A stretch of DNA of 64,000 bases, taken from assembly GCF_058153355.1 (NCBI RefSeq), contig NZ_CM177019.1; one strand, given 5' to 3'. The position numbers were made by a program, and so were the translations under genes. Shown in pieces: positions 44,798 through 55,331 of this stretch. Position 1 is the first letter of the stretch. Each line of letters begins with the position of its first letter. The notes under the pieces are model-generated. The model was not told where the DNA came from, did no database searches, and saw nothing but the letters and a program-made list of their open reading frames with translations.

Positions 44798-44994
44798 TAC
44801 TGGCTGCGACACTTTTGAATAAAAGCGTCGACATTTCGGCGCTCATAACGAACTACTTTTGCACTGAAACGAATTGGTGCCAGGATAGCCCGATGACGAT
44901 GCTTAATATTCCACTCACATAGCGTTTTCTGTGTAATACCTAACTTTTGGCATACTTCATCTGGGGTGAGTAAATCGTCGGGTTTCTCGCTCAT
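44794..44994 (-). CDS. AlpA/excisionase-type HTH DNA-binding protein
   Basis: 66-aa ORF LLTPDEVCQKLGITQKTLCEW typical of AlpA/Xis family; stop overlaps int stop. Confidence 0.75.
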   Translation of the reverse strand: MSEKPDDLLTPDEVCQKLGITQKTLCEWNIKHRHRAILAPIRFSAKVVRYERRNVDAFIQKCRSQY

Positions 44995-46385
44995 GCTATA
45001 CCTCTCTTTTTCATGGCATCGAGCAGGATGTCCTGCACTGTTCGTTTTGAGTTGCGCCGCTCCATCACCATTTCGTCCATAGTGTCGGCCGCAATAATGT
45101 GGTGAATAAATACCGGACGATTGTGTCCGGCCTGTATCTGCCTGGTGGGGCCGATACGTTCAATAATTTGCTGATACTGCTCCAGGTCCCACCAGTGTGA
45201 GAAAAATACTAGTATGTTTCCGCCGTCCTGCATGTTCAGACCGTGGCCCGCGCTGGCTGGGTGTGCAAAGAGAACAGGAATCTTTCCGGAATTCCAGTCG
45301 CGCAGTGTCTGTGGATCTTGGTCGAGGTGACGACCGCGAGGGAATGCTTTAAGCAAGCGTTCAAGATCGTGTTTCCAGTGATAAGCAACCAGCACAGGTG
45401 CGCCAGCTGCTTCGGTCAGTATGCTGTCCAGCGCCTGCAGTTTGGTGTCATGCAGTTCTGACCAACTTCCGGTGTCGTCTGTGTATACTGCGCCACTGGC
45501 GATTTGCAGACACTTCAGTGTCTTTGCCGCGGCGTTTGGTGCTTCGATGCCTTCGCCATTCAGCTCGAGGAACATTTCCTTTTCCATTTCACGATACTGC
45601 TGACGGGCCTTCGGCGGCATATCCACGCGGATTACGTTATGGATGGGGTCTTTGATATCGAACCAGTCGGCCGCATCCAGCGAGAGGGTCACATCGGCTA
45701 ATGCTCGCTGTATTTCAGCCTGTGAGTGAGCAAACGGCTCCAGTTTGGTCCAGCTCTGCCCTGGAAACTGTATCGAGTTGAACCAGCGTGAGGTAAACGC
45801 GCCGTAAGTGCGTCCGAGACGTTGCCCCTGGTCCACAAACCACGCTTGTCCCCACAAATCTACCAGGCCGTTCGGTGCTGGCGTCCCGGTGAGATTTATC
45901 CAGCGCCGGACATACTTATGCGCCACTTTGCCCAGCGCCGCCGCGCGCTTACCACCACCTCGCAGCCGGAAGGATTTTAGCCGGGTGCTTTCATCCGGAA
46001 TGACAGTACCGAACGGCCATCGTTCTCCCAATTCTTCAACCAGCCAGACAAGGTTATCGTAGTTGATGGTGAACACGCTTGCGTTGCTGTTCGCCAGCGC
46101 CGTAGAGCGCGCTTTGGCATTACCAACAATCGGCTGCACCTCGATATTGCGTAAATGCCCCCACTTCACTGCTTCATCCGGCCAGGTGTTTGCTGCAACA
46201 CGTAGCGGTGCGAGGACCAGTGCGGGGCGTGTTTCTGCCCCTGCCATAAAGAGATCTTCCAGCGCAGTGAGCGTTGCCACGGTTTTACCCATCCCCATAC
46301 CTGCCCAGATGTTGCCGCGCATGATGTCGATTTGGTGATTGATGATCAGGTCTTGATACGGGCGGGGGGTGAAAATTTGTCCCAT
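44991..46385 (-). CDS. SNF2/DEAD-like phage helicase
   Basis: 464-aa ORF with Walker A GMGMGKT and DEST motif II. Confidence 0.8.
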   Translation of the reverse strand: MGQIFTPRPYQDLIINHQIDIMRGNIWAGMGMGKTVATLTALEDLFMAGAETRPALVLAPLRVAANTWPDEAVKWGHLRNIEVQPIVGNAKARSTALANSNASVFTINYDNLVWLVEELGERWPFGTVIPDESTRLKSFRLRGGGKRAAALGKVAHKYVRRWINLTGTPAPNGLVDLWGQAWFVDQGQRLGRTYGAFTSRWFNSIQFPGQSWTKLEPFAHSQAEIQRALADVTLSLDAADWFDIKDPIHNVIRVDMPPKARQQYREMEKEMFLELNGEGIEAPNAAAKTLKCLQIASGAVYTDDTGSWSELHDTKLQALDSILTEAAGAPVLVAYHWKHDLERLLKAFPRGRHLDQDPQTLRDWNSGKIPVLFAHPASAGHGLNMQDGGNILVFFSHWWDLEQYQQIIERIGPTRQIQAGHNRPVFIHHIIAADTMDEMVMERRNSKRTVQDILLDAMKKRGIA

Positions 46386-47587: not shown

Positions 47588-47917
47588 ATGAGCAAAAGAG
47601 ACGACCCGCAGTTGAGGGTACGCATACCAGAATTGCTAAAAGAGGCTTTGGAGAAGAAAGCACGGGCTAATAAGAGAACACTGACCTCTGAGATCGTTAG
47701 CCGGTTGGAATCTACTATTCTTCAGGACAAATTACTTCATACATCTAGGGGGTTTGAGGAAGCTGCTGATGAGATTCTCATACTCAGGGATCTTCTCGAG
47801 AAACTTAAAACAACGTACCATCGAGAGTATCAGGCCGAATGGGTTTATGAAAACAAATACGAGCTTATTGAAGCGATGGAAAAACTTAAGAAGTTGCTAA
47901 ATCCTGAGAATGAATAG
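47588..47917 (+). CDS. Arc/MetJ-type ribbon-helix-helix DNA-binding protein
   Basis: 109-aa ORF; N-terminal SKRDDPQLRVRIPELLKEALEKKARANKRTLTSEIVSRL is Arc-like RHH. Confidence 0.7.
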   Translation: MSKRDDPQLRVRIPELLKEALEKKARANKRTLTSEIVSRLESTILQDKLLHTSRGFEEAADEILILRDLLEKLKTTYHREYQAEWVYENKYELIEAMEKLKKLLNPENE

Positions 47918-48062
47918 TGGATTCATCCTCTAAACTTTTACGTAACCGCCGGGTGATTTCGGCGGTTAGTGTTCTGTCGTTTTCTCTGGAAATTTTTTCC
48001 AGTGCGTCTTTCAAGTCTTGCGGGATGCGTACCCGCAATTGTGGGTCATCACGTTTACTCAC
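47886..48062 (-). CDS. Second Arc-like RHH protein (paralog, GTG start)
   Basis: Unlisted 58-codon ORF VSKRDDPQLRVRIPQDLKDALEKISRENDRTLTAEITRRL; GGAGG SD; GTG overlaps VRR-NUC stop; 3' end antisense to 47588..47917. Confidence 0.5.
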   Translation of the reverse strand: MSKRDDPQLRVRIPQDLKDALEKISRENDRTLTAEITRRLRKSLEDESTIHSQDLATS

Positions 48063-48355
48063 AATATCCCCTCCAGATTTTTGCTATCTAATACCACCAC
48101 GCTAAAGCCCAGCTCGCGCAGCCGCTCGTGCTCGCGCAACTGGTCGGCGCGTGGTGCTTTGCCGGGTGCTTTGCATTCAACGAAAACAAGACGGCCGCCG
48201 GGTAGCAGAACAATGCGATCCGGTACCGAGCGGCGACCGGGAGATACGAACTTAAAGGCCACACCGCCAGCCTTTTTCACTTCAGCGACGAGGTGCTTTT
48301 CGATAAGGCTTTCACGTTCATAGGCCATCTGAATCCCACTCTTCAAAAAGCACAT
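48059..48355 (-). CDS. VRR-NUC domain nuclease
   Basis: 98-aa ORF with VAFKFVSPGRRSVPDRIVLLPGGRLVFVECKAPGK core typical of VRR-NUC. Confidence 0.75.
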   Translation of the reverse strand: MCFLKSGIQMAYERESLIEKHLVAEVKKAGGVAFKFVSPGRRSVPDRIVLLPGGRLVFVECKAPGKAPRADQLREHERLRELGFSVVVLDSKNLEGIL

Positions 48356-48617
48356 TCAATTCCAGTTTCTCTGCCAACGCGTTTTCTGCACGTGCGCCAG
48401 CAGAGTACTCCCACTCTTTGAGCATATAAATCGTATCGGCACAGCGAAGCATTGCGAGGCAGATGTCCATATACTGAGCCTGTGTCAAACCATTGGGTAA
48501 AGTTGCGGGGTTAAGCACAACATATCCCTTGTCCGTTAGCCTCTTTGCTGCGGAATGAAAAGCCGGGCGGTTAAATTGCTCGTAACCGCTCATCGGCCCG
48601 GCAACGTAAACGATCAT
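48318..48617 (-). CDS. DUF4406 / nucleoside 2-deoxyribosyltransferase-like protein
   Basis: 99-aa ORF MIVYVAGPMSGYEQFNRPAF..., resembling the deoxyribosyltransferase-like fold family. Confidence 0.55.
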   Translation of the reverse strand: MIVYVAGPMSGYEQFNRPAFHSAAKRLTDKGYVVLNPATLPNGLTQAQYMDICLAMLRCADTIYMLKEWEYSAGARAENALAEKLELNVLFEEWDSDGL

Positions 48618-48829
48618 TCTTCGACCGCCTTACGCTTTTCACGCATATTCTGCATCAGGCAAAAATCAGATCTGCGTTCACTCCATTCCTGATTCAGTTC
48701 GTGATGTGATTCGCGGTTGGCTTTTGCCCAGACCTTCGCTGCCCGGTCATATTCGCCGGATTGTTCAAGTCGCAAAGCCTCCCTTGCAGCCCTGTAATAA
48801 AGTGGATTGTCCCGGTATTTAAATGACAT
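48614..48829 (-). CDS. Hypothetical phage protein
   Basis: 71-aa ORF in operon between polymerase and DUF4406 gene; no recognisable motif. Confidence 0.4.
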   Translation of the reverse strand: MSFKYRDNPLYYRAAREALRLEQSGEYDRAAKVWAKANRESHHELNQEWSERRSDFCLMQNMREKRKAVEE

Positions 48830-48834
48830 AGGAG

Positions 48835-51762
48835 TTAATCCTTACGGTAGTGGTACGCCTCAAAACCGCCAGCGTTCAGTGGGATATCGGGCGCCCATTC
48901 GGGGTTAGTGGAGAGAAGCGCGGAAAGCGCTTTATCGTTGAAATCTTCTGTGTCAGGTGCTTCGGTGATCACCTCGTCGTGTACCGTCAGCACAATGCTG
49001 TAACCGGCATCTTCGATAAGCGGCATGTTTCCGGCCAGAACGTCGCGGGCGGCCGCCTGGGTGACGTTCTCTACCAGCTTTCCGCCGTAGGTTTTGAGTC
49101 GTTGCCATTTACGCGAATAAGAGTTAACACCCATGTAGGTGATATTCCCTTTTTCGATAACCGGAGACGGGTAGCATACAGCGCGTCCGGATGGTAGCTG
49201 TATGCGCAGCCACGCGCCATCGCGGCGGATTTTAAGATAACCGCAATACAATGTTTTTTGCGGTGTGGCGATTGCAGTGCGGATGGTGCGCTCCAGTTCG
49301 TACCAGAAATCGCAGGTCGCCGGGTGCGCCCTGCGCCAGAGACGTTTAAGTGAGTCGCAGGCGATAAATACCCGTTCAGAAAGGCCGTAGGTTGACTTAC
49401 GTTTAACCGATTCGTAGTACCAGCTTTTCGCCTCGCGGATAACATCGCGGGGAATGTTTGGCAGTGCGGCGTTCGCCAGCTCGTCGAGATCGAGACTGTA
49501 AACCAGTGCAAAAGTGATGAAGGCCGACACACCACCACCGTACCCGCAGTTGTGAACGATTAAATGTCCTGAGTCGGTTTTAATCGTGAATCTGTTTCGA
49601 GGCCCCGCATGTGCAATGTCGTAAACATCGCTCCAGCTCGTCGATACGTTTTTGCAGGTCTGCGATTTTTCTTCTGTTGCGGTTATTGTCTGCTTTGGAG
49701 ACGAACTGGATATTACCCGGTTCGTAGCCTTTGTTATTGTCGATGCGATCCATTTCCAACTTTGGGTCATTAAACCCTTTGATTTCCCTGACGTGTAGCA
49801 AAAAAGCTCTTTTATCTTCCTGCCATAGCTGACAAACGTAGATCCCCCGACCGCCGTAGTTGTGAAACAACCTGTTGGTGGGTTTATGGCAACGGCTGAT
49901 TGCGGCAGACAATCGGTTAAGTAGCCTGCGACGGGTTTCGTCATCTGCAATAGCATCCGCATAGCATAAGAATTTTTTACGATACTCGTTATGCTTTTTC
50001 TTTGCGCAAATGTTACATCGGGTACTTTTTCCTTTAAGGAGATTGCTGATTGTTGCGGTGTGAGGCATTGCACCACATTTGCATTTGACAAGTATCCTTC
50101 GGTCTTTTCCGGGTACTTTTTCCAGTTCTTTGATAACGGTAAGTTCTCCGAAGCAAGTTCCAGGCTTTGGTGAAGCGTATTTTTGTTTAAAGCGATAAGG
50201 TTTGCCAGCTTCCATCCAGTAGGGGTTAGCACCTGGTGATCCGGGGTCATTTTTGCTCCGTCCAGTGATATTAAGGCTTTGTACCCCCTGTAAATCAGTC
50301 CTTCGTGTTTTACCCATTCTTCTCCGTCCCATAACAAATCCGCGCCCGAAATACTAACAAGCGGCTTATAGCCTTTATCGGTGAGCACTAAAGTATCCGG
50401 AGCTATGCAAGCCAATTCCAGCACTTTACCTATCTGGCGCTGGTCTTTGGTGACGCGCTCAACTTCAATTCCGTAAGCTTTTGCATACGCCAGTTTATAT
50501 AAGTCCGGACCCGTTCCGGCGTCGTACTCTCTGAATGCATTCAGTTTCCATTCTTCTCCCGCCAGCCATGCCAGCATACGGCCTTCAATGTTCGACAAGT
50601 CACTTACCACCAGTTTTTTACCTGTTGGCGCGATAATGCAGCCACGTAACGCTGAACTGGTTAGTTCCATGATATTGTCAAACAGCAGGTCTGCACATCC
50701 GGCTTTCAGTGCTTCGATGCCTTCGTCTATTTGTTCCTGTTTTAGTGAAGGGCGGGGAAGATTCTGGGGCTGGAATAGCCGTCCGGCCCAGCGCCCGGTA
50801 CGTGACGCCCCGCAGAACTGTAGCGTACCGCGTAAGCGCCCGTCGTGGCTTACGCCTTTCATCAGTGCCTTGTATTTACTGGTGCTGGTAGTACTGGCTT
50901 GCTGGCGGATAGCCAGCAGTTCTTTCACGGCAGATGGTAAATCGGGGTCGGCTATACGACGTTCCAGGGTACTGCGTTGCATGTCTGGTAGCTCCACACC
51001 GTAGGATTCAACGATGTGCTTAATCAACGCGTCCCGTTGTGTGGCTGCCTGCACTTCGCCATCAGTCATTTCCTGTGTACGCTTTGCCAGGCGTTTTTGC
51101 TCCTGGTCTACCGCTTCGATCGCAGCGCGCGCGAGTTGAATGTCCATGCAGACGCCCCGGTCGTTGATCTGCTGATCACGATGCCAGAGCGCCAGTTCTG
51201 TCCCCTGATAATTCCACTTCGGCAGACGTTTATAGACTTCGCGCATTGCCTCGATATCCAGCCCGGCGTAAGCAACAAAGCGCCGCCATTCTTCCGGGTG
51301 GGTTTTACTGGTGGCCCGACGCAGTTTGCTGTTTTTCGGGCGTGGCTTACAGAACAGCTGGATCAGCGCTTTACCTTCTTTGTCCTTCGCTTTGTCTTGC
51401 GGGACGCCGAGTATTTCGCAGAGTTCCCCCAGAGACCCCGGGAGGCCGTGCGCCAGCGCCTGCACCATTGTGTCGCGCCAACGTTCGACTGGCGGTGCCA
51501 GTCGCGGCATTGCATAACGCAGGACGGTGCGGTCGAAGTGAGAGTTATGAAAATAAAGCAGGGTCTCAGGGGCTGCGATTGCTTCGTATAAGCCGTGTGG
51601 AATACCACCACCGGCAGTGATATCCCACACGTTTACGGGCCCGTCGTTGATAGCCCATGCGAACAGCATCACTTCAACGCCTTCGGCATACGCATGGGTA
51701 CCGTTCGTAATAGGGATTTCGCAATAGGTTTCCAGGTCGCCCCATAGAATGTTTTCAGACAA
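48835..51762 (-). CDS. Family-A DNA polymerase with 3'-5' exonuclease domain, interrupted by an in-frame intein
   Basis: 975-aa ORF; motif B reads [10 protein letters not shown][intein][10 protein letters not shown]; motif C VHDEV; N-terminal exonuclease domain. Confidence 0.85.
49549..50409 (-). other. Intein (287 codons) within polymerase motif B
   Basis: Starts [10 protein letters not shown], block [10 protein letters not shown], ends HLIVHN followed by Cys; central ~185 residues lack any endonuclease motif in frame. Confidence 0.75.
49580..50332 (-). CDS. HNH/His-Me finger-like endonuclease ORF in alternative frame inside the intein
   Basis: 250-codon ORF offset from polymerase frame; CKCG...CNIC zinc-finger pair and [27 protein letters not shown] resembling HNH motif. 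Confidence 0.45.
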
Positions 51763-51828
51763 GACAGGGTCCTCCGTGGACTAAACGGTGACAAAAAGCC
51801 CCTGGCTGAGCAGGGGCGGATTGAATGA

Positions 51829-52620
51829 TTAACGAGGTAAAGTGGGTGGAATATATCTGCCGATGCGGTCTTCTATGGTCGGCAGAGCACACATGCTGTC
51901 GCTGAAGCAATCATGCAACTGGTAAACCAGTTTCGAATCCATTTTTTCGAGGGCAGGCATTAACTGCGAGCGCCAGATTTCATTGATGCGCCGGAAGTTA
52001 TGACAGATGGCGCGGAGATTGTTGATGAACATTTCCTTCTCTGCGTCATTGATTGCTGTCTGCACTTTCTGAATACGCTTTGTGCTGCCGTTCCGGTAAA
52101 AGTCCTTCTGCGCAGCGACAGCCTCATCCACGGTCGGATAGCACCCTAAGTAAACGCTTTTCTCTCCGTCCCATGCATAAGCCCTGTACGGATTGTATTT
52201 GCTCCGGTGATGATAAACCATTTTCGGCAGACACTCCCTGTGCGGCGCCAGTATCGTGGAAGACTGCGGAACAGCGGTTTCTTTCTCGATAAGGTCAAGC
52301 ACCCAGCGACGAAATTCTTTTGCTACAGGAGTACTGGCAAGCATGGCGACTAGATGCGCGCCACGAAGGGAGAAAATGCGCGCTTTTGTACGAAGATTGC
52401 TGTAACCTTTTGATATTCCCGAGCACCTCAAATTGAGGTTCTCGGCGATTACAACCATCTCTGAAGAAAACTCGTCAGCGTTGCGGTTATAAATCTGGGT
52501 TATTTTATCTCCGCGTGAATATTCCAGCGCAGTAGCTAAAGTCGCAGCTGTGAACCACAACTTACCATTGTGTTCGACTGTTTCGAGAACGTGGGATTTG
52601 AAAGTGAGTTGAGAGCTCAT
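51829..52620 (-). CDS. Bro-N domain protein with C-terminal AP2-like domain
   Basis: ORF trimmed to MSSQLTFKSHVLE start; KLWFTAATLATALEY is Bro-N; YAWDGEKSVYLGCYPTVDEAVAAQKDF is AP2-like. Confidence 0.65.
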   Translation of the reverse strand: MSSQLTFKSHVLETVEHNGKLWFTAATLATALEYSRGDKITQIYNRNADEFSSEMVVIAENLNLRCSGISKGYSNLRTKARIFSLRGAHLVAMLASTPVAKEFRRWVLDLIEKETAVPQSSTILAPHRECLPKMVYHHRSKYNPYRAYAWDGEKSVYLGCYPTVDEAVAAQKDFYRNGSTKRIQKVQTAINDAEKEMFINNLRAICHNFRRINEIWRSQLMPALEKMDSKLVYQLHDCFSDSMCALPTIEDRIGRYIPPTLPR

Positions 52621-52946
52621 AGTTTTATGTCCTGGTAGATATTTTGAATTTACCCTTTTTGAGAGGGTGGCCGGGCGCTCAAAACCGCTACCAGTCGGCG
52701 GGCGTATTTCCCTTCGGAAGGGTATTGTATTAGCCGCACGCCCGACCATTGAATTCTCAATATCGTGGACATAAAAAATCCGCATGACTGACGGGCGCGG
52801 TTTCCGCTGGTAATAAAGGTGTTTTGAGCACCATGAAGCGGAATATACCCATTGGTTATCGCGGATGTCAATGTATGCTTTTGCAAAAGGTTGTCATCCC
52901 CTTTGCAAAAACACCCGGCGTGCAACCGGGCGTCTGTGAAGGCGGG

Positions 52947-53495
52947 TTAAATCAGTGCTTCAGCATCAGCACCTTCGCTGATATCGTCGAAATCGTCAGC
53001 GCTTGCCACTCCGCCGCCAGCGAATGCATCGCCGTCTCGCAGGAACTGGACTCCGCCGAGTGAGGCATTAATGCGTTTACCGAAATTATTGTCCTGTGCC
53101 CAGATATCGATAACGGCGTTTACATAGCACCCTGCATAGGGACGTCCGTCAGCCTGAATAAGTGGCGAACGATCGCGATCAAGAACAGCTGGGCGCGCTT
53201 TGTTAGCAGCATTCAGGAAGAAATTACCGGGGAAGCCTTCATACTCTGCTTTTTCATCACCATCATGCAGGCACAGATTGAGTTTTTTCTCCAGCTGGTT
53301 ATAAATGGGCTCCCACTTCTCTCCCCATTTTTCCTTCGCTACCTGCTTCATAGCTTTACGGATTTCTTCCAGTTGTGGGTGTTTGGGTGACATTAAAAAT
53401 ACTGCGGAGAAACGTGGATCGCCTTCGCCGTTTACAGTTTTAGCTTCAAACAGAGCAGGAAAAGCTAATCTCACGTTATTTAATTTAATCTTCAT
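52947..53495 (-). CDS. DUF2815-like putative ssDNA-binding protein
   Basis: 182-aa ORF MKIKLNNVRLAFPALFEAK... with acidic C-terminal tail, adjacent to DUF2800 and polymerase. Confidence 0.6.
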   Translation of the reverse strand: MKIKLNNVRLAFPALFEAKTVNGEGDPRFSAVFLMSPKHPQLEEIRKAMKQVAKEKWGEKWEPIYNQLEKKLNLCLHDGDEKAEYEGFPGNFFLNAANKARPAVLDRDRSPLIQADGRPYAGCYVNAVIDIWAQDNNFGKRINASLGGVQFLRDGDAFAGGGVASADDFDDISEGADAEALI

Positions 53496-54007
53496 TTCAA
53501 AACTCCTATAAATTCTATGGATTCTTTTTCCGCTGCTTTACGCGCAATTACAGCTTCCGCTACGGAATTAAATAGACCTAAATGTTTTTCTTTGCCGTGC
53601 AGCTTTATATAAGCTCTCCACTTATTACGGTGACGGCAAACCCCAACGGCACCGCTTTTATTATCAGAGCGTAAGGATTGGTTAATGTTATTTTCGGTAG
53701 AGGTTACAAGTCGTAGATTAGAAAGGGTGTAATTGCTCCGATTTTTGTCTATGTGATCTACCTCTAATCCCGAGGGGATACTACCGTTATGCATAACCCA
53801 GACGATGCGATGTAACAACATTTTCCGACCGTTTACACTTACGTGATAATACCCGTCCGGCCTTATATGTCCCGCTTGCTTATCTGCATATTTAGCATTC
53901 CAGGACAAATAGTCTCGCCGGGTTTTAAAATGGGTGAGCGGACGATATTTCCATATTAAAACGCCATTGTGATACCGGAAGCATTCATTTAAATATTCTT
54001 GATCCAA
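53492..54007 (-). CDS. HNH-AP2 free-standing homing endonuclease
   Basis: 171-aa ORF with LEVDHIDKNRSNYTLSNLRLVTSTEN HNH motif followed by AP2-type domain. Confidence 0.8.
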   Translation of the reverse strand: MDQEYLNECFRYHNGVLIWKYRPLTHFKTRRDYLSWNAKYADKQAGHIRPDGYYHVSVNGRKMLLHRIVWVMHNGSIPSGLEVDHIDKNRSNYTLSNLRLVTSTENNINQSLRSDNKSGAVGVCRHRNKWRAYIKLHGKEKHLGLFNSVAEAVIARKAAEKESIEFIGVLK

Positions 54008-54021
54008 ATAACCTCCTTAAA

Positions 54022-55331
54022 TCAGATGAGGTCTGCGGTTAGCGTATCGTCGGATACGTCGTCGAAATCATTTATAGGGTTGATATTGAGTGCGGGGCGT
54101 GGGTCTGACTCGGGAACGACGGTGGGTTTACCATCAGCTCGTGTTATCAGTGCCTCGACTTTTGACCAACGGCGCGGACTGGCCTTTTTGATAAGTTTTT
54201 CGGCTTTTGTGGGGCTAATAAGTTTAAAGTCGAATACTTCTTCAGTTTTGTACCTGAACTGGTCCTTCAGAAGTGCGCGAGCTGCCTCTTCATCACTCCA
54301 GGCCCGGTTACCTTGTTTTCCTGTTACCAGTTTAAACCCCGGTACCGGATGTCCGGCATTGAGTTCATTGTGAACCCGGTCCCGTACTGCCTTTAGCCAG
54401 GATTCAATAAAGTCGGCCTGACTATAGATCTCCGCAAGCTGCTCAATGGTTAACAGAGGTACACGTGCGCTGGCATTGGTGATTATTTCGCTGACAGGCT
54501 TTGTCAGATCTTCAAAGTCGCTGGCCGCTGTTTGTAAATGCTGCATTTTCTGGGCAGTGCAAATAGCTTTTGCTTTACAGAAGCGGCACTGTTTTTCTCC
54601 AGGTATGAAGTTTTCCAGCGGTAGTGTCTCAATGCCTTCGCATTCAGCAATATTGAGAACAAGGATCGCACTGGTTGCGGCCTCCTGTGCCCGTTCACCG
54701 AAAGACTGAAGTTCCTGTACGGTTAACGACCATTCTGAAACGTGGTTGAGCCTTGGCTGGTGAATAAATAATCTTACAGTCTCAAAGTCATACAGCATGC
54801 TGAATTGTTCGAGCGCACCCAGAGCATACAGTTGTAGTTGCTCATTTTGTTCTGCATCAATGCGGACGCCTTTGCCATATTTCAGGTCGTGGATTTGTAA
54901 TTCGTTACCAGCGATGATTATGCCGTCGGCAGTTCCGAAAGATTCTTCCACCCCCGTTATATGTGAGAAATCAACACGTTGTTCAACCAATAGTTCATTA
55001 TTCTGTGCAAGAGTCCAGACCGTATCAACATACCGGCCAACGGCTTCGACCATTTCATCATCCACCTGTGGGCCAGATGTATCATCAGGATTTTCGCGAA
55101 GGGGGTATGAGCCGAGAAACATAGAAACATAGAAACATTGCATCCGGCGTAGTGTTCCGGGTGGCTTTGCCTGTTTCGTAGAACTTTTTCAGCAAGCGCG
55201 TGCGCTGCAGTGCCCTCGATTGCAAAAGTTGTTTCTTTATCCGGTTGTGTGGCCTCCAGCGCCAGACTTCCTGGGCAGCGCATCCATCGATGCGCTGATG
55301 ATGGAGAAAGTTGTGCGTGAACGTCTGGCAT
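54022..55331 (-). pseudogene. DUF2800-like PD-(D/E)XK nuclease (Cas4-like), frameshifted
   Basis: N-terminal part (from 55331) [15 protein letters not shown] and body (to 54022) with DLKYGKG and C-terminal Cys cluster lie in different frames, switching at the 8-mer repeat. Confidence 0.7.
55115..55138. repeat. Tandem repeat (AGAAACAT)x3
   Basis: Three perfect head-to-tail 8-bp copies at the frame switch in the DUF2800-like gene. Confidence 0.9.

What the first reader, a model, noticed from the sequence alone, without database searches (positions are those of the whole stretch)
48059..48617. Deoxyribosyltransferase-like DUF4406 gene coupled to VRR-NUC in the replication operon
A small protein with a nucleoside 2-deoxyribosyltransferase-like N-terminus (MIVYVAGPMSGYEQFNRPAF) is overlapped by and co-transcribed with a VRR-NUC nuclease next to the polymerase. 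This could indicate nucleotide salvage or DNA base modification linked to phage replication or anti-restriction.
Basis: inference. Interest (0 to 1): 0.3.

Follow-up and report, generated by a model that had tools for sequence, protein, structure and literature searches.

The report
Prophage DUF4406 gene beside VRR-NUC nuclease
A small phage gene of untested function (DUF4406, a stripped-down relative of nucleoside deoxyribosyltransferases) lies packed against a junction-cutting nuclease in an E. coli prophage; it is real and was recognised correctly, but it is already annotated and ordinary, and nothing ties it to the nuclease or to DNA modification.

Summary
On the minus strand, 48318-48617 encodes a 99-aa DUF4406 protein (Pfam E=6e-34). 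48059-48328 encodes an 89-aa VRR-NUC/PD-(D/E)XK nuclease (E=3e-14 to solved VRR-NUC 4QBO). The two overlap by 11 nt, in a run of four genes with overlapping start and stop codons just downstream of a family-A DNA polymerase.

A confident AlphaFold model (pLDDT 94.5) has the deoxyribosyltransferase-like fold. The nucleophile Glu78 and Tyr4 are conserved. The canonical Asp/Asn of the triad is Cys53. Ser72 sits where nucleoside-specific transferases have Asp and dNMP hydrolases have Ser.

The link to VRR-NUC is positional only. Seventy-four other phage loci with 60-70% identical DUF4406 have no VRR-NUC or polymerase nearby. Sister prophages keep VRR-NUC without DUF4406. The two genes also have different histories (100% versus 87-89% DNA identity to the same relatives).

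Some phages fuse DUF4406 to dNTP pyrophosphohydrolases. The most likely role is therefore an accessory N-glycosidase acting on 5'-phosphorylated (deoxy)nucleotides. I found no support for DNA base modification or anti-restriction.

RefSeq already annotates the same arrangement in E. coli genomes. Interest is low.

The more unusual feature nearby is an intein in the polymerase whose HNH endonuclease is read in a different frame.

The parts
48318..48617 (-). DUF4406 gene (99 aa): a minimal enzyme with the N-deoxyribosyltransferase-like fold. Key residues are Tyr4, Ser10, Cys53, Ser72 and Glu78.
48059..48328 (-). VRR-NUC / PD-(D/E)XK nuclease gene (89 aa from Met10; an upstream ATG at 48355 would give 98 aa). 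The motif is PD...E-C-K.
   Evidence: Matches solved VRR-NUC 4QBO at E=2.8e-14 and 4QBN at 2.6e-10. PHROG 93 at 3.8e-31. Pfam VRR_NUC is sub-threshold. RefSeq start in relatives.
48318..48328 (-). 11-nt overlap (ATGGCCTATGA) between the DUF4406 stop and the VRR-NUC start.
   Evidence: Read directly from the sequence.
48614..48829 (-). 71-aa ANR / PerC-like small regulator gene. Its stop overlaps the DUF4406 start (ATGA).
   Evidence: NCBIfam NF033650 ANR_neg_reg at 9.4e-20. Pfam PerC at 0.0012, below its cut-off. Junction sequence.
47886..48062 (-). 58-aa Arc-like DNA-binding protein gene. Its GTG start overlaps the VRR-NUC stop (GTGA) and follows GGAGGGG.
   Evidence: Pfam Arc at 1.4e-09. Junction sequence.
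48835..51762 (-). Family-A DNA polymerase gene (975 codons, including a 288-codon intein). It ends 5 nt upstream of the ANR start.
   Evidence: Pfam DNA_pol_A. 96% and 88% identity to an intein-less 687-aa homologue.
49546..50409 (-). Intein inside the polymerase motif ...GKVLELA|C...HN|CGYGGG.
49580..50332 (-). HNH endonuclease ORF nested in the intein, on the same strand but in the +2 frame.
   Evidence: PHROG 374 at 4.7e-37. The same arrangement is conserved in L096 and L097.
44991..46385 (-). SNF2-family helicase gene at the distal end of the same leftward gene block.
   Evidence: Pfam SNF2-rel_dom at 1.8e-12. RefSeq annotation of relatives.

Best explanation
The 99-aa gene is an ordinary member of the very large DUF4406 family. 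This family is a minimal branch of the N-(deoxy)ribosyltransferase superfamily, carried as a small exchangeable accessory gene in the early or DNA-metabolism region of many temperate and lytic phages.

Shown:
- It is a real, conserved gene.
- Its predicted fold is NDT-like.
- It keeps the nucleophile Glu (Glu78) and the Tyr that orients it (Tyr4).
- It lies in a run of four genes with overlapping start and stop codons (ANR, DUF4406, VRR-NUC, Arc) just after the prophage DNA polymerase.
- The pairing with VRR-NUC is confined to this prophage lineage.

Inferred:
- It is an N-glycosidase, possibly with some deoxyribose-5-phosphate transfer activity, acting on a 5'-phosphorylated (deoxy)nucleotide rather than on nucleosides or DNA.
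- It would cleave the base from a (d)NMP through a covalent Glu78-sugar intermediate.
- This would trim or clean the nucleotide pool when phage DNA synthesis starts, a role comparable to DNPH1/Rcl or the phage enzyme DmtZ.
- VRR-NUC next door most likely works independently, as the phage's branched-DNA / Holliday-junction resolvase.
For: Family and fold:
- Pfam DUF4406 at E=6e-34.
- 9,898 50%-identity cluster representatives with E<=1e-3.
- AlphaFold model with pLDDT 94.5.
- Foldseek best matches are T. brucei and Chroococcidiopsis NDTs, human DNPH1, and MilB/BcmB CMP N-glycosidases, with TM about 0.7.
- A profile of 71 homologues hits NDT 2A0K at E=7e-4. It aligns YIAGP with YIAGP, and the G-A-x-A-E motif with the G-T-A-F-E nucleophile motif.

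Active-site conservation in 71 diverse members:
- Tyr4 64/71, Ser/Thr10 66/71, Ser72 70/71, Gly74 69/71, Glu78 67/71.

Phosphate-type substrate:
- Ser72 lies six residues before the nucleophile. TbNDT has Asp there and DNPH1 has Ser98.
- The DmtZ paper states that NDTs use Asp/Asn there to hold the 5'-OH, while the dNMP hydrolases have small uncharged residues (PMC12884076).

Fusions pointing to nucleotides:
- Mycobacteriophage Halley gp165 is DUF4406 plus a MazG/PRA-PH pyrophosphohydrolase domain.
- PHROG 12019 'MazG-like pyrophosphatase' contains the domain.
- BFVD structural neighbours include proteins named 'dATP/dGTP diphosphohydrolase N-terminal domain-containing'.
- This parallels the DutZ-DmtZ fusion, in which dNTP goes to dNMP and then to base plus dR5P (PMC12884076).

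Accessory nature and independence from VRR-NUC:
- 74 viral loci with 60-70% identical DUF4406 have no VRR-NUC or PolA within 6 kb.
- Their neighbours are DnaB, DnaC, O-like initiators, Dam, DUF977, NinX, DUF551 and DUF4752. In Rac-SA53 they are ydaU/V/W.
- Sister prophages carry PolA-TIR-(frameshifted ANR)-64-aa gene-VRR-NUC instead.
- DUF4406 is 97.7-100% identical in DNA to relatives whose VRR-NUC is only 87-89% identical.
- The few DUF4406 differences are mostly synonymous.
Against: - No member of DUF4406 has been assayed. The literature search found no functional paper.
- The canonical third triad residue (Asp/Asn) is not conserved. Both independent alignments place Cys53 there. Family-wide that column is Cys 43, Asp 10, Ser 6, Gly 4, Thr 4 of 71. 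Chemistry or substrate may therefore differ from DNPH1/NDT. One possibility is a substrate whose leaving group needs no protonation, such as a nicotinamide nucleotide.
- A Pro conserved in transferases aligns with Pro37 (69/71), so transfer rather than hydrolysis cannot be excluded.
- The protein lacks the C-terminal segment that completes the neighbouring active site in NDT and DNPH1 dimers.
- Residue equivalences rest on sequence-profile alignments at under 25% identity. I had no access to model coordinates, so they are not from a superposition.
- The fusion evidence comes from distant homologues (about 35% identity).
Confidence: 0.5

Rival explanations
1. DUF4406 would be a base-exchanging deoxyribosyltransferase that makes a non-canonical (deoxy)nucleotide for incorporation by the phage polymerase. 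The prophage DNA would then be modified and protected from restriction.
For: - The fold and nucleophile are those of base-exchange enzymes.
- A transferase-type Pro aligns with Pro37.
- The phage NDT-like enzyme DmtZ does transfer dR5P to 2-aminoadenine (PMC12884076).
- One sister prophage has Nmad5 and a Dcm methyltransferase in the same block.
- DNA methyltransferases are sometimes adjacent in other phages.
Against: - The window has no gene for making an unusual base, no dNMP kinase and no PurZ-like enzyme next to the gene.
- NCBIfam's DpoZ model gives only 16.8 bits against a cut-off of 500 for the polymerase.
- The same gene family sits in lambdoid and Rac prophages that replicate with host polymerase.
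- Nmad5 and Dcm are absent from this window, and they vary independently of DUF4406 among the prophages examined.
- Dam is near the gene in only 10 of 61 loci.
Confidence: 0.07
2. Anti-defence enzyme. DUF4406 would destroy a nucleotide that host immunity needs. This could be a signal (cyclic or ADPR-derived nucleotides) or a precursor such as dAMP, which feeds dITP signalling in the Kongming system.
For: - Depleting dAMP is a proven anti-defence strategy (T5 Dmp against Kongming, bioRxiv 10.1101/2024.12.20.629578).
- The fold is shared with TIR and with NAD-cleaving retron effectors.
- The missing general-acid residue would suit substrates with good leaving groups.
- The gene is an exchangeable accessory cassette, and the neighbouring slot holds a candidate defence gene (PDC-S35 TIR) in sister prophages.
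Against: - There is no experimental or genomic link to any defence system.
- PADLOC has no match.
- This prophage block shows no dNMP kinase that would trigger Kongming.
- The family is extremely widespread and is conserved as a housekeeping-like small gene.
Confidence: 0.15
3. DUF4406 and VRR-NUC would form a functional pair acting on DNA. For example, a glycosylase-like step that creates abasic sites could be followed by nuclease cleavage, for repair or for attacking foreign DNA.
For: - The 11-nt overlap and apparent translational coupling.
- The pairing is conserved in the roughly 66-120 E. coli genomes that carry this cassette.
Against: - The pairing is absent from 74 other DUF4406 loci and from phages of other hosts.
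- VRR-NUC persists without DUF4406.
- A recombination breakpoint lies between the two genes.
- Solved close homologues of the nuclease are stand-alone enzymes.
- No NDT-fold enzyme is known to me to act on polymeric DNA (my own knowledge).
Confidence: 0.05
4. The protein would be a non-catalytic nucleotide-binding or regulatory module, or a NAD/NMN-cleaving toxin used for superinfection exclusion.
For: - The triad is incomplete (Cys53).
- It is very small (99 aa).
Against: - Near-invariance of Glu78, Ser72, Gly74 and Tyr4 argues for catalysis.
- There is no immunity partner gene.
- Its position inside a lytic-type replication block, and its fusions to pyrophosphohydrolases, fit metabolism better than toxicity.
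Confidence: 0.1

Closest known systems
Pfam DUF4406 (PF14359), clan of N-(deoxy)ribosyltransferase-like proteins
   Same: Full-length match well above the curated cut-off. RefSeq proteins from relatives (for example WP_000637724.1) carry this name, and the gene in that locus is 100% identical in DNA to the window gene.
   Different: Nothing. This is a typical member. The family itself has no tested function.
DNPH1 / Rcl (2'-deoxynucleoside 5'-phosphate N-hydrolase; PDB 8QHR, 4P5E, 2KHZ)
   Same: Same fold. Tyr, Ser (six residues before the nucleophile) and Glu nucleophile all align. This is the best functional analogue.
   Different: Under 25% identity. The triad Asp80 position is Cys53. The protein is 99 aa, against 131-163 residues for the DNPH1/Rcl chains listed, so the C-terminal part is missing. 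Pro37 is present, which per the DmtZ paper is a transferase feature.
DmtZ of Z-genome phages (Gordonia phage Ghobes, Arthrobacter phage Wayne; NAR 2026, PMC12884076)
   Same: A phage-encoded NDT-superfamily enzyme acting on dNMP. It has a phosphate-accepting pocket plus the transferase Pro, and is often fused or adjacent to a dNTP pyrophosphohydrolase. DUF4406 shows analogous fusions.
   Different: DmtZ is about 145 aa with a Tyr6/Asn77/Glu103 triad. The authors found no Pfam model for it, so it is a different family. It works with PurZ0/DpoZ, which are absent here.
Nucleoside 2-deoxyribosyltransferases (PF05014; PDB 2A0K, 8PQT, 6QAI, 1F8X)
   Same: Best structural and profile matches. The YxAGP and GxxxE motifs align.
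   Different: Pfam PF05014 does not match this protein even at E<=10. Ser replaces the Asp that binds the 5'-OH. The triad Asp/Asn is missing. The protein is about 55 residues shorter.
MilB / BcmB / BlsM CMP N-glycosidases (PDB 4JEL, 4JEN, 5VTO)
   Different: Only marginal sequence-profile signal (E 0.4-0.7). They belong to antibiotic-biosynthesis clusters.
1T1J (uncharacterised structural-genomics protein APC5043)
   Different: 17% identity, and its function is unknown, so it gives no functional information.
Stand-alone VRR-NUC nucleases (PDB 4QBO, 4QBN)
   Same: The neighbouring 89-aa protein aligns over its whole length. The motif VPDRIV...FVE(C/V)KAPG is shared.
   Different: It scores below the Pfam VRR_NUC gathering threshold. 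The Holliday-junction resolvase activity of the solved phage and bacterial proteins is from my own knowledge of the 2014 FAN1/VRR-NUC study and was not tested here.

Membership tests
DUF4406 (PF14359) | Match to the family HMM above the curated gathering score. | tested here: met
   116.7 bits against a cut-off of 22, E=6.3e-34, profile positions 1-90 of 91.
N-(deoxy)ribosyltransferase superfamily | Flavodoxin-like alpha/beta fold shared by NDT, DNPH1 and MilB. | tested here: met
N-(deoxy)ribosyltransferase superfamily | Catalytic Glu nucleophile in a G-x-x-x-E motif after strand 3. | tested here: met
   Glu78 aligns with the Glu of TbNDT and with Glu104 of DNPH1. It is conserved in 67 of 71 homologues.
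N-(deoxy)ribosyltransferase superfamily | Tyr on strand 1 that orients the nucleophile. | tested here: met
   Tyr4 aligns with the Tyr of YIAGP in TbNDT and with Tyr24 of DNPH1. Column counts are 64 Tyr and 5 Phe of 71.
N-(deoxy)ribosyltransferase superfamily | Third triad residue Asp (or Asn) on the helix before strand 3. | tested here: not met
   Both alignments place Cys53 at that position. Family-wide the column is Cys 43, Asp 10, Ser 6, Gly 4, Thr 4 of 71. The nearby Asp51 is only 35 of 71.
Nucleoside 2-deoxyribosyltransferase (PF05014, EC 2.4.2.6) | Match to the family HMM. | tested here: not met
   PF05014 is not listed for this protein even at E<=10.
Nucleoside 2-deoxyribosyltransferase (PF05014, EC 2.4.2.6) | Asp or Asn that holds the 5'-OH of a nucleoside (six residues before the nucleophile). 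| tested here: not met
   Ser72 (70 of 71) sits where TbNDT has Asp. The rule is taken from PMC12884076.
Nucleoside 2-deoxyribosyltransferase (PF05014, EC 2.4.2.6) | Base exchange between deoxynucleosides. | not testable with these tools
   Needs an enzyme assay.
DNPH1-like dNMP N-hydrolases | Small uncharged residue (Ser) at the 5'-phosphate pocket. | tested here: met
   Ser72 aligns with Ser98 of DNPH1. This is a low-confidence hhalign alignment against a single sequence.
DNPH1-like dNMP N-hydrolases | Hydrolysis of dNMP to base plus deoxyribose 5-phosphate. | not testable with these tools
   Needs an enzyme assay.
VRR-NUC (PF08774) | Match to the family HMM above the gathering score. | tested here: not met
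   15.2 bits against 23.8, E=0.023.
VRR-NUC (PF08774) | Significant similarity to solved VRR-NUC proteins, and the PD...(D/E)xK catalytic motif. | tested here: met
   4QBO at E=2.8e-14 and 4QBN at 2.6e-10. The motif PDRIV...VECK aligns with PDRIV...VEVK.
Single transcription unit (operon) with polymerase and VRR-NUC | Same strand, overlapping or abutting start and stop codons, no internal terminator or promoter. | tested here: inconclusive
   Overlaps of 4, 11 and 4 nt and a 5-nt gap. The scan gives only one weak terminator-like site on this strand, inside VRR-NUC, and no promoter-like site. A strong terminator-like hairpin lies just upstream of the polymerase (51817-51798). No RNA data are available.
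DNA hypermodification / anti-restriction system | Companion genes for an unusual base or nucleotide, or a modified-base-specific polymerase. | tested here: not met
   None in the window block. The DpoZ model scores 16.8 bits against a cut-off of 500. Nmad5 and Dcm are present only in a sister prophage.

The most novel reading that the evidence does not exclude
DUF4406 would be a very large, untested family (about 10,000 clusters at 50% identity) of minimal NDT-fold enzymes with a non-canonical active site: Tyr and Glu are retained, but the usual Asp/Asn is replaced, mostly by Cys. Its real job would be to destroy a specific nucleotide in phage-host conflict. Candidates are dAMP or dIMP-type precursors, or a nicotinamide/ADPR-derived immune signal. 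On this reading it is a widespread, overlooked counter-defence enzyme rather than a housekeeping pool cleaner.
Probability: 0.12. Interest if true: 0.6.

Novelty: already known. Interest (0 to 1): 0.2.

Why it matters
For this locus, little changes. The gene in RefSeq-annotated relatives (WP_000637724.1 in the first locus I fetched) is 100% identical in DNA. The same ANR-DUF4406-VRR-NUC-polymerase arrangement is annotated in dozens of E. coli genomes.

The family as a whole is worth a biochemist's afternoon. It is one of the commonest small phage genes with an enzyme-like active site and no assigned reaction. Its active site departs from the textbook triad. Related folds (DmtZ, retron effectors, TIR) have recently turned out to matter in nucleotide-level phage-host conflict.

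Knowing its substrate would let hundreds of conflicting annotations be corrected. I saw 'nucleoside deoxyribosyltransferase', 'hydrolase' and 'deoxycytidylate deaminase' all applied to single-domain DUF4406 proteins.

Tried and rejected
- Single-sequence search of the PDB gave nothing. Only the 71-sequence profile reached NDTs.
- Twenty long homologues (194-358 aa) were scanned for second domains as functional clues. Pfam found nothing beyond DUF4406 and its weak clan relatives, so those extensions are uninformative or are gene-calling artefacts.
- Genes named 'hydrolase' or 'deoxycytidylate deaminase' in actinobacteriophages turned out to be plain 124-128-aa single-domain DUF4406 proteins, not fusions.
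- Literature searches for DUF4406 and PF14359 gave no functional study. 'Deoxyribosyltransferase + VRR-NUC' led only to DpdA, an unrelated TGT-family enzyme. 'Deoxyribosyltransferase-like + phage' led to retron effectors.
- The PADLOC defence models did not match DUF4406, VRR-NUC or ANR.
The 80 loci returned are therefore biased to enterobacterial relatives of at least 60% identity. More distant contexts were sampled by hand.
- The paper that defines the Asp-to-Ser rule for phosphate acceptance (Kaminski and Labesse 2013) is not held. I relied on its restatement in PMC12884076.
- I considered a link to DNA methyltransferases because they recur nearby. I rejected it as weak: 10 of 61 loci, and both gene types simply live in the same accessory region.
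- I could not superpose the model on solved structures because coordinates are not exposed. Residue equivalences therefore come from sequence alignments.
Full report
**What is there**

The stretch 48059-48617 holds two minus-strand genes.

It matches Pfam DUF4406 over its whole length (E=6.3e-34, 116.7 bits against a cut-off of 22). It also matches PHROG 355, labelled nucleoside 2-deoxyribosyltransferase.
- The second encodes a small PD-(D/E)XK nuclease. Pfam's VRR_NUC model scores it below threshold. It aligns end to end with two solved stand-alone VRR-NUC nucleases, 4QBO (E=2.8e-14) and 4QBN (E=2.6e-10), sharing the PDRIV...VE(C/V)K motif.
- The nuclease most likely starts at Met10 (48328), not at the first ATG (48355). 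That start gives 89 aa, like the solved proteins. It is the start RefSeq uses in relatives, and a GAGTGGGA sequence precedes it. The overlap with DUF4406 is then 11 nt.

Four genes are packed together with overlapping or nearly abutting start and stop codons:

- The polymerase stop lies 5 nt before the ANR start.
- ANR and DUF4406 share ATGA.
- DUF4406 and VRR-NUC share 11 nt.
- VRR-NUC and Arc share GTGA, behind a GGAGGGG ribosome-binding site.

The pattern scan found no credible promoter or terminator inside this run. Co-transcription is therefore a reasonable inference, but it is not shown.

**Setting**

The window is E. coli chromosome with a prophage integrated next to yfhL. A relative 96.5% identical over the finding region is annotated by RefSeq as integrase, HTH, SNF2 helicase, Rha, two Arc proteins, VRR-NUC, DUF4406, ANR regulator, DNA polymerase, DUF2815, DUF2800, cI/Cro, VapE primase-helicase, Q, lysis and packaging genes.

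The finding region occurs in 120 of 5,426 complete E. coli genomes. The polymerase occurs in 158. The observation therefore repeats existing annotation.

**Fold and active site**

- A full scan of 1.84 billion cluster representatives found 9,898 relatives at E<=1e-3.
- With 71 of them as the alignment, AlphaFold gave a very confident model (pLDDT 94.5).
- Foldseek's best PDB matches are nucleoside 2-deoxyribosyltransferases, human DNPH1, and the CMP N-glycosidases MilB and BcmB.
- The 71-sequence profile reaches T. brucei NDT at E=7e-4.

The details matter, however.

- Retained: the nucleophile Glu78 (67/71) and Tyr4 (64/71).
- Missing: the third residue of the superfamily triad, normally Asp or Asn. 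An HMMER alignment to TbNDT and an hhalign alignment to DNPH1 both put Cys53 there. Across the family that column is Cys 43, Asp 10, Ser 6, Gly 4, Thr 4.
- Six residues before the nucleophile, nucleoside-specific NDTs use Asp to hold the 5'-OH, and dNMP hydrolases have a small residue. DUF4406 has a nearly invariant Ser72 (70/71). It aligns with Asp in TbNDT and with Ser98 in DNPH1. The rule is stated in PMC12884076.
- Pro37 (69/71) aligns with a Pro of TbNDT. This may be the Pro that the same paper calls conserved in transferases.
- The protein is about 55 residues shorter than NDTs and lacks their C-terminal part.

It is therefore a member of the superfamily and of DUF4406. It is not a member of the classical NDT family: PF05014 does not match it at all.

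**Is it tied to VRR-NUC?** No.

- I fetched 80 viral loci encoding relatives. The six from this prophage lineage have the ANR-DUF4406-VRR-NUC-polymerase arrangement. The other 74 (60-71% identical proteins) have no VRR-NUC, ANR, polymerase or SNF2 within 6 kb.
- Their neighbours are replication initiators, DnaB and DnaC homologues, Dam methylase, DUF977, NinX, DUF551 and DUF4752. This is the accessory region that follows the replication genes of lambdoid and Rac-type prophages.
- In Aeromonas, Shewanella, Vibrio, Gordonia and mycobacterial phages the gene again sits among small early or DNA-metabolism genes, with no constant partner.
- Within the lineage, some prophages and the phage vB_EcoM-689R2 keep VRR-NUC but carry a different 64-aa gene in place of DUF4406. 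They also have a TIR-domain gene and a frameshifted ANR remnant. Another strain has an antirepressor gene inserted after the polymerase.
- DUF4406 in the window is 97.7-100% identical in DNA to copies whose VRR-NUC is only 87-89% identical. A recombination boundary therefore lies between the two genes.
- The few substitutions in DUF4406 are mostly synonymous, so the gene is maintained.

**What it most likely does**

No paper in the library reports an assay of DUF4406. The closest precedent is DmtZ, a phage NDT-like enzyme that hydrolyses dAMP and can transfer deoxyribose 5-phosphate. DmtZ is usually fused to a dNTP pyrophosphohydrolase (PMC12884076).

DUF4406 shows the same kind of association in distant relatives:

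- Mycobacteriophage Halley gp165 is DUF4406 plus a MazG/PRA-PH domain.
- A whole PHROG labelled MazG-like pyrophosphatase contains the domain.
- Viral structural neighbours include proteins named after a dATP/dGTP diphosphohydrolase domain.

Together with Ser72, this points to a 5'-phosphorylated (deoxy)nucleotide as substrate, and to an N-glycosidase reaction through Glu78. I put about 0.5 on this.

The missing acid residue keeps other substrates open. These include nicotinamide-type nucleotides and immune signals. An anti-defence role by precursor depletion has a precedent in T5 Dmp, but nothing here links the gene to a defence system, and PADLOC has no match.

DNA base modification or anti-restriction has no support. 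The window has no companion genes for it. The polymerase is not DpoZ-like. The family is common in prophages that rely on host replication.

**Verdict**

The feature is already annotated and ordinary. Interest is low.

**Side observations**

*Intein in the polymerase.*

- The polymerase carries a 288-codon intein (49546-50409), inserted in the motif ...GKVLELA|C...HN|CGYGGG.
- Inside it, on the same strand but in the +2 frame, lies a 250-codon HNH endonuclease ORF (PHROG 374, E=4.7e-37).
- Two metagenomic inteins only about 34% identical, one of them in a family-A polymerase at the same site, have the same nested ORF in the same relative frame.
- In all three, frame 0 has no stop codon, against 22-39 stops in the +1 frame.
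- Over the central 160 codons the HNH frame is conserved (38-45% identity, alignment scores 237-317). Frame 0 over the same nucleotides is not (26-27%, scores 0-18). The intein ends are conserved in frame 0.
- This architecture was described very recently for actinobacteriophages (bioRxiv 10.1101/2025.01.02.630785; related element in PMC11855218). This would be an enterobacterial example.

*Other items.*

- A free-standing HNH_3 gene lies at 53492-54007.
- The DUF2800 gene is frameshifted.
- A Bro-N gene has its own promoter-like and terminator-like sites and an sRNA-Xcc1 Rfam match at 52661-52747.

Noticed in passing
window 49546-50409 (intein) and 49580-50332 (nested ORF), minus strand; L096 and L097: The polymerase carries a 288-codon intein (Cys1, TPDH motif, HN|C end) in a conserved polymerase motif. 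Its HNH homing endonuclease is encoded on the same strand in the +2 frame. Two inteins only about 34% identical keep the same nested ORF in the same frame. Frame 0 has 0 stops against 22-39 in the +1 frame. In the centre only the HNH frame is conserved. RefSeq mis-calls the same polymerase in strain VL40 as two pseudogene fragments. The architecture was first reported in 2025 for actinobacteriophages.
   Followed up: yes
L001 3105-3866; L090 3663-4424; L091 3663-4424: In sister prophages and in phage vB_EcoM-689R2, a 253-aa TIR-domain protein lies directly after the polymerase. It matches Pfam CAP12/Pycsar-effector TIR and gives a full-length match to PADLOC candidate system PDC-S35 (E=1e-108). 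A frameshifted ANR remnant and a 64-aa PHROG 2358 gene follow, in place of DUF4406. This junction is a hotspot for exchangeable cargo.
   Followed up: partly
window 54022-55331, minus strand: The DUF2800 (Cas4-like PD-(D/E)XK) gene is split by a frameshift. Codons 1-70 are in ORF 54957-55331 and codons 66-433 are in ORF 54022-55143, with both pieces reading VSMFL. The span is 8 nt longer than the intact 1302-nt gene of relatives. The prophage may be defective, or this may be a sequencing error.
   Followed up: partly
window 53492-54007, minus strand: A free-standing HNH_3 homing-type endonuclease gene (171 aa, Pfam E=3e-19, GC 41%) is inserted between DUF2815 and DUF2800. It is absent from the relatives examined.
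   Followed up: no
window 51798-52871, minus strand: A Bro-N domain gene (51829-52785) looks like a self-contained insert. It has a near-consensus promoter-like site (52871-52842, 11 of 12 matches) and a strong terminator-like hairpin (51817-51798) just upstream of the polymerase start. An Rfam sRNA-Xcc1 match (68 bits, gathering score 53) lies at 52661-52747 over its 5' end.
   Followed up: no
window 48614-48829, minus strand: The gene fused by ATGA to DUF4406 encodes a 71-aa ANR-family / PerC-like small regulator. Members of these families modulate AraC-type virulence regulators in pathogenic E. coli (my own knowledge). Its role inside a replication block is unexplained.
   Followed up: no
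window 47588-48062: Two Arc-family genes converge and overlap by 32 nt: 47588-47917 on the plus strand and 47886-48062 on the minus strand. A hairpin at 47943-47968 lies inside the minus-strand gene. Followed by a Rha gene, this resembles an antirepressor control module.
   Followed up: no
L003 4990-6003 and 9584-10225: One sister prophage has a Dcm-type cytosine methyltransferase directly after VRR-NUC, and an Nmad5 'nucleotide modification associated' gene upstream of the polymerase. Neither is present in the window.
   Followed up: no
L084 1480-2226 (mycobacteriophage Halley gp165); L085, L093, L094: Database names for DUF4406 proteins are inconsistent. Single-domain proteins of 124-128 aa are called deoxycytidylate deaminase, hydrolase or nucleoside deoxyribosyltransferase. 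Halley gp165 is a genuine DUF4406 plus MazG/PRA-PH fusion.
   Followed up: partly
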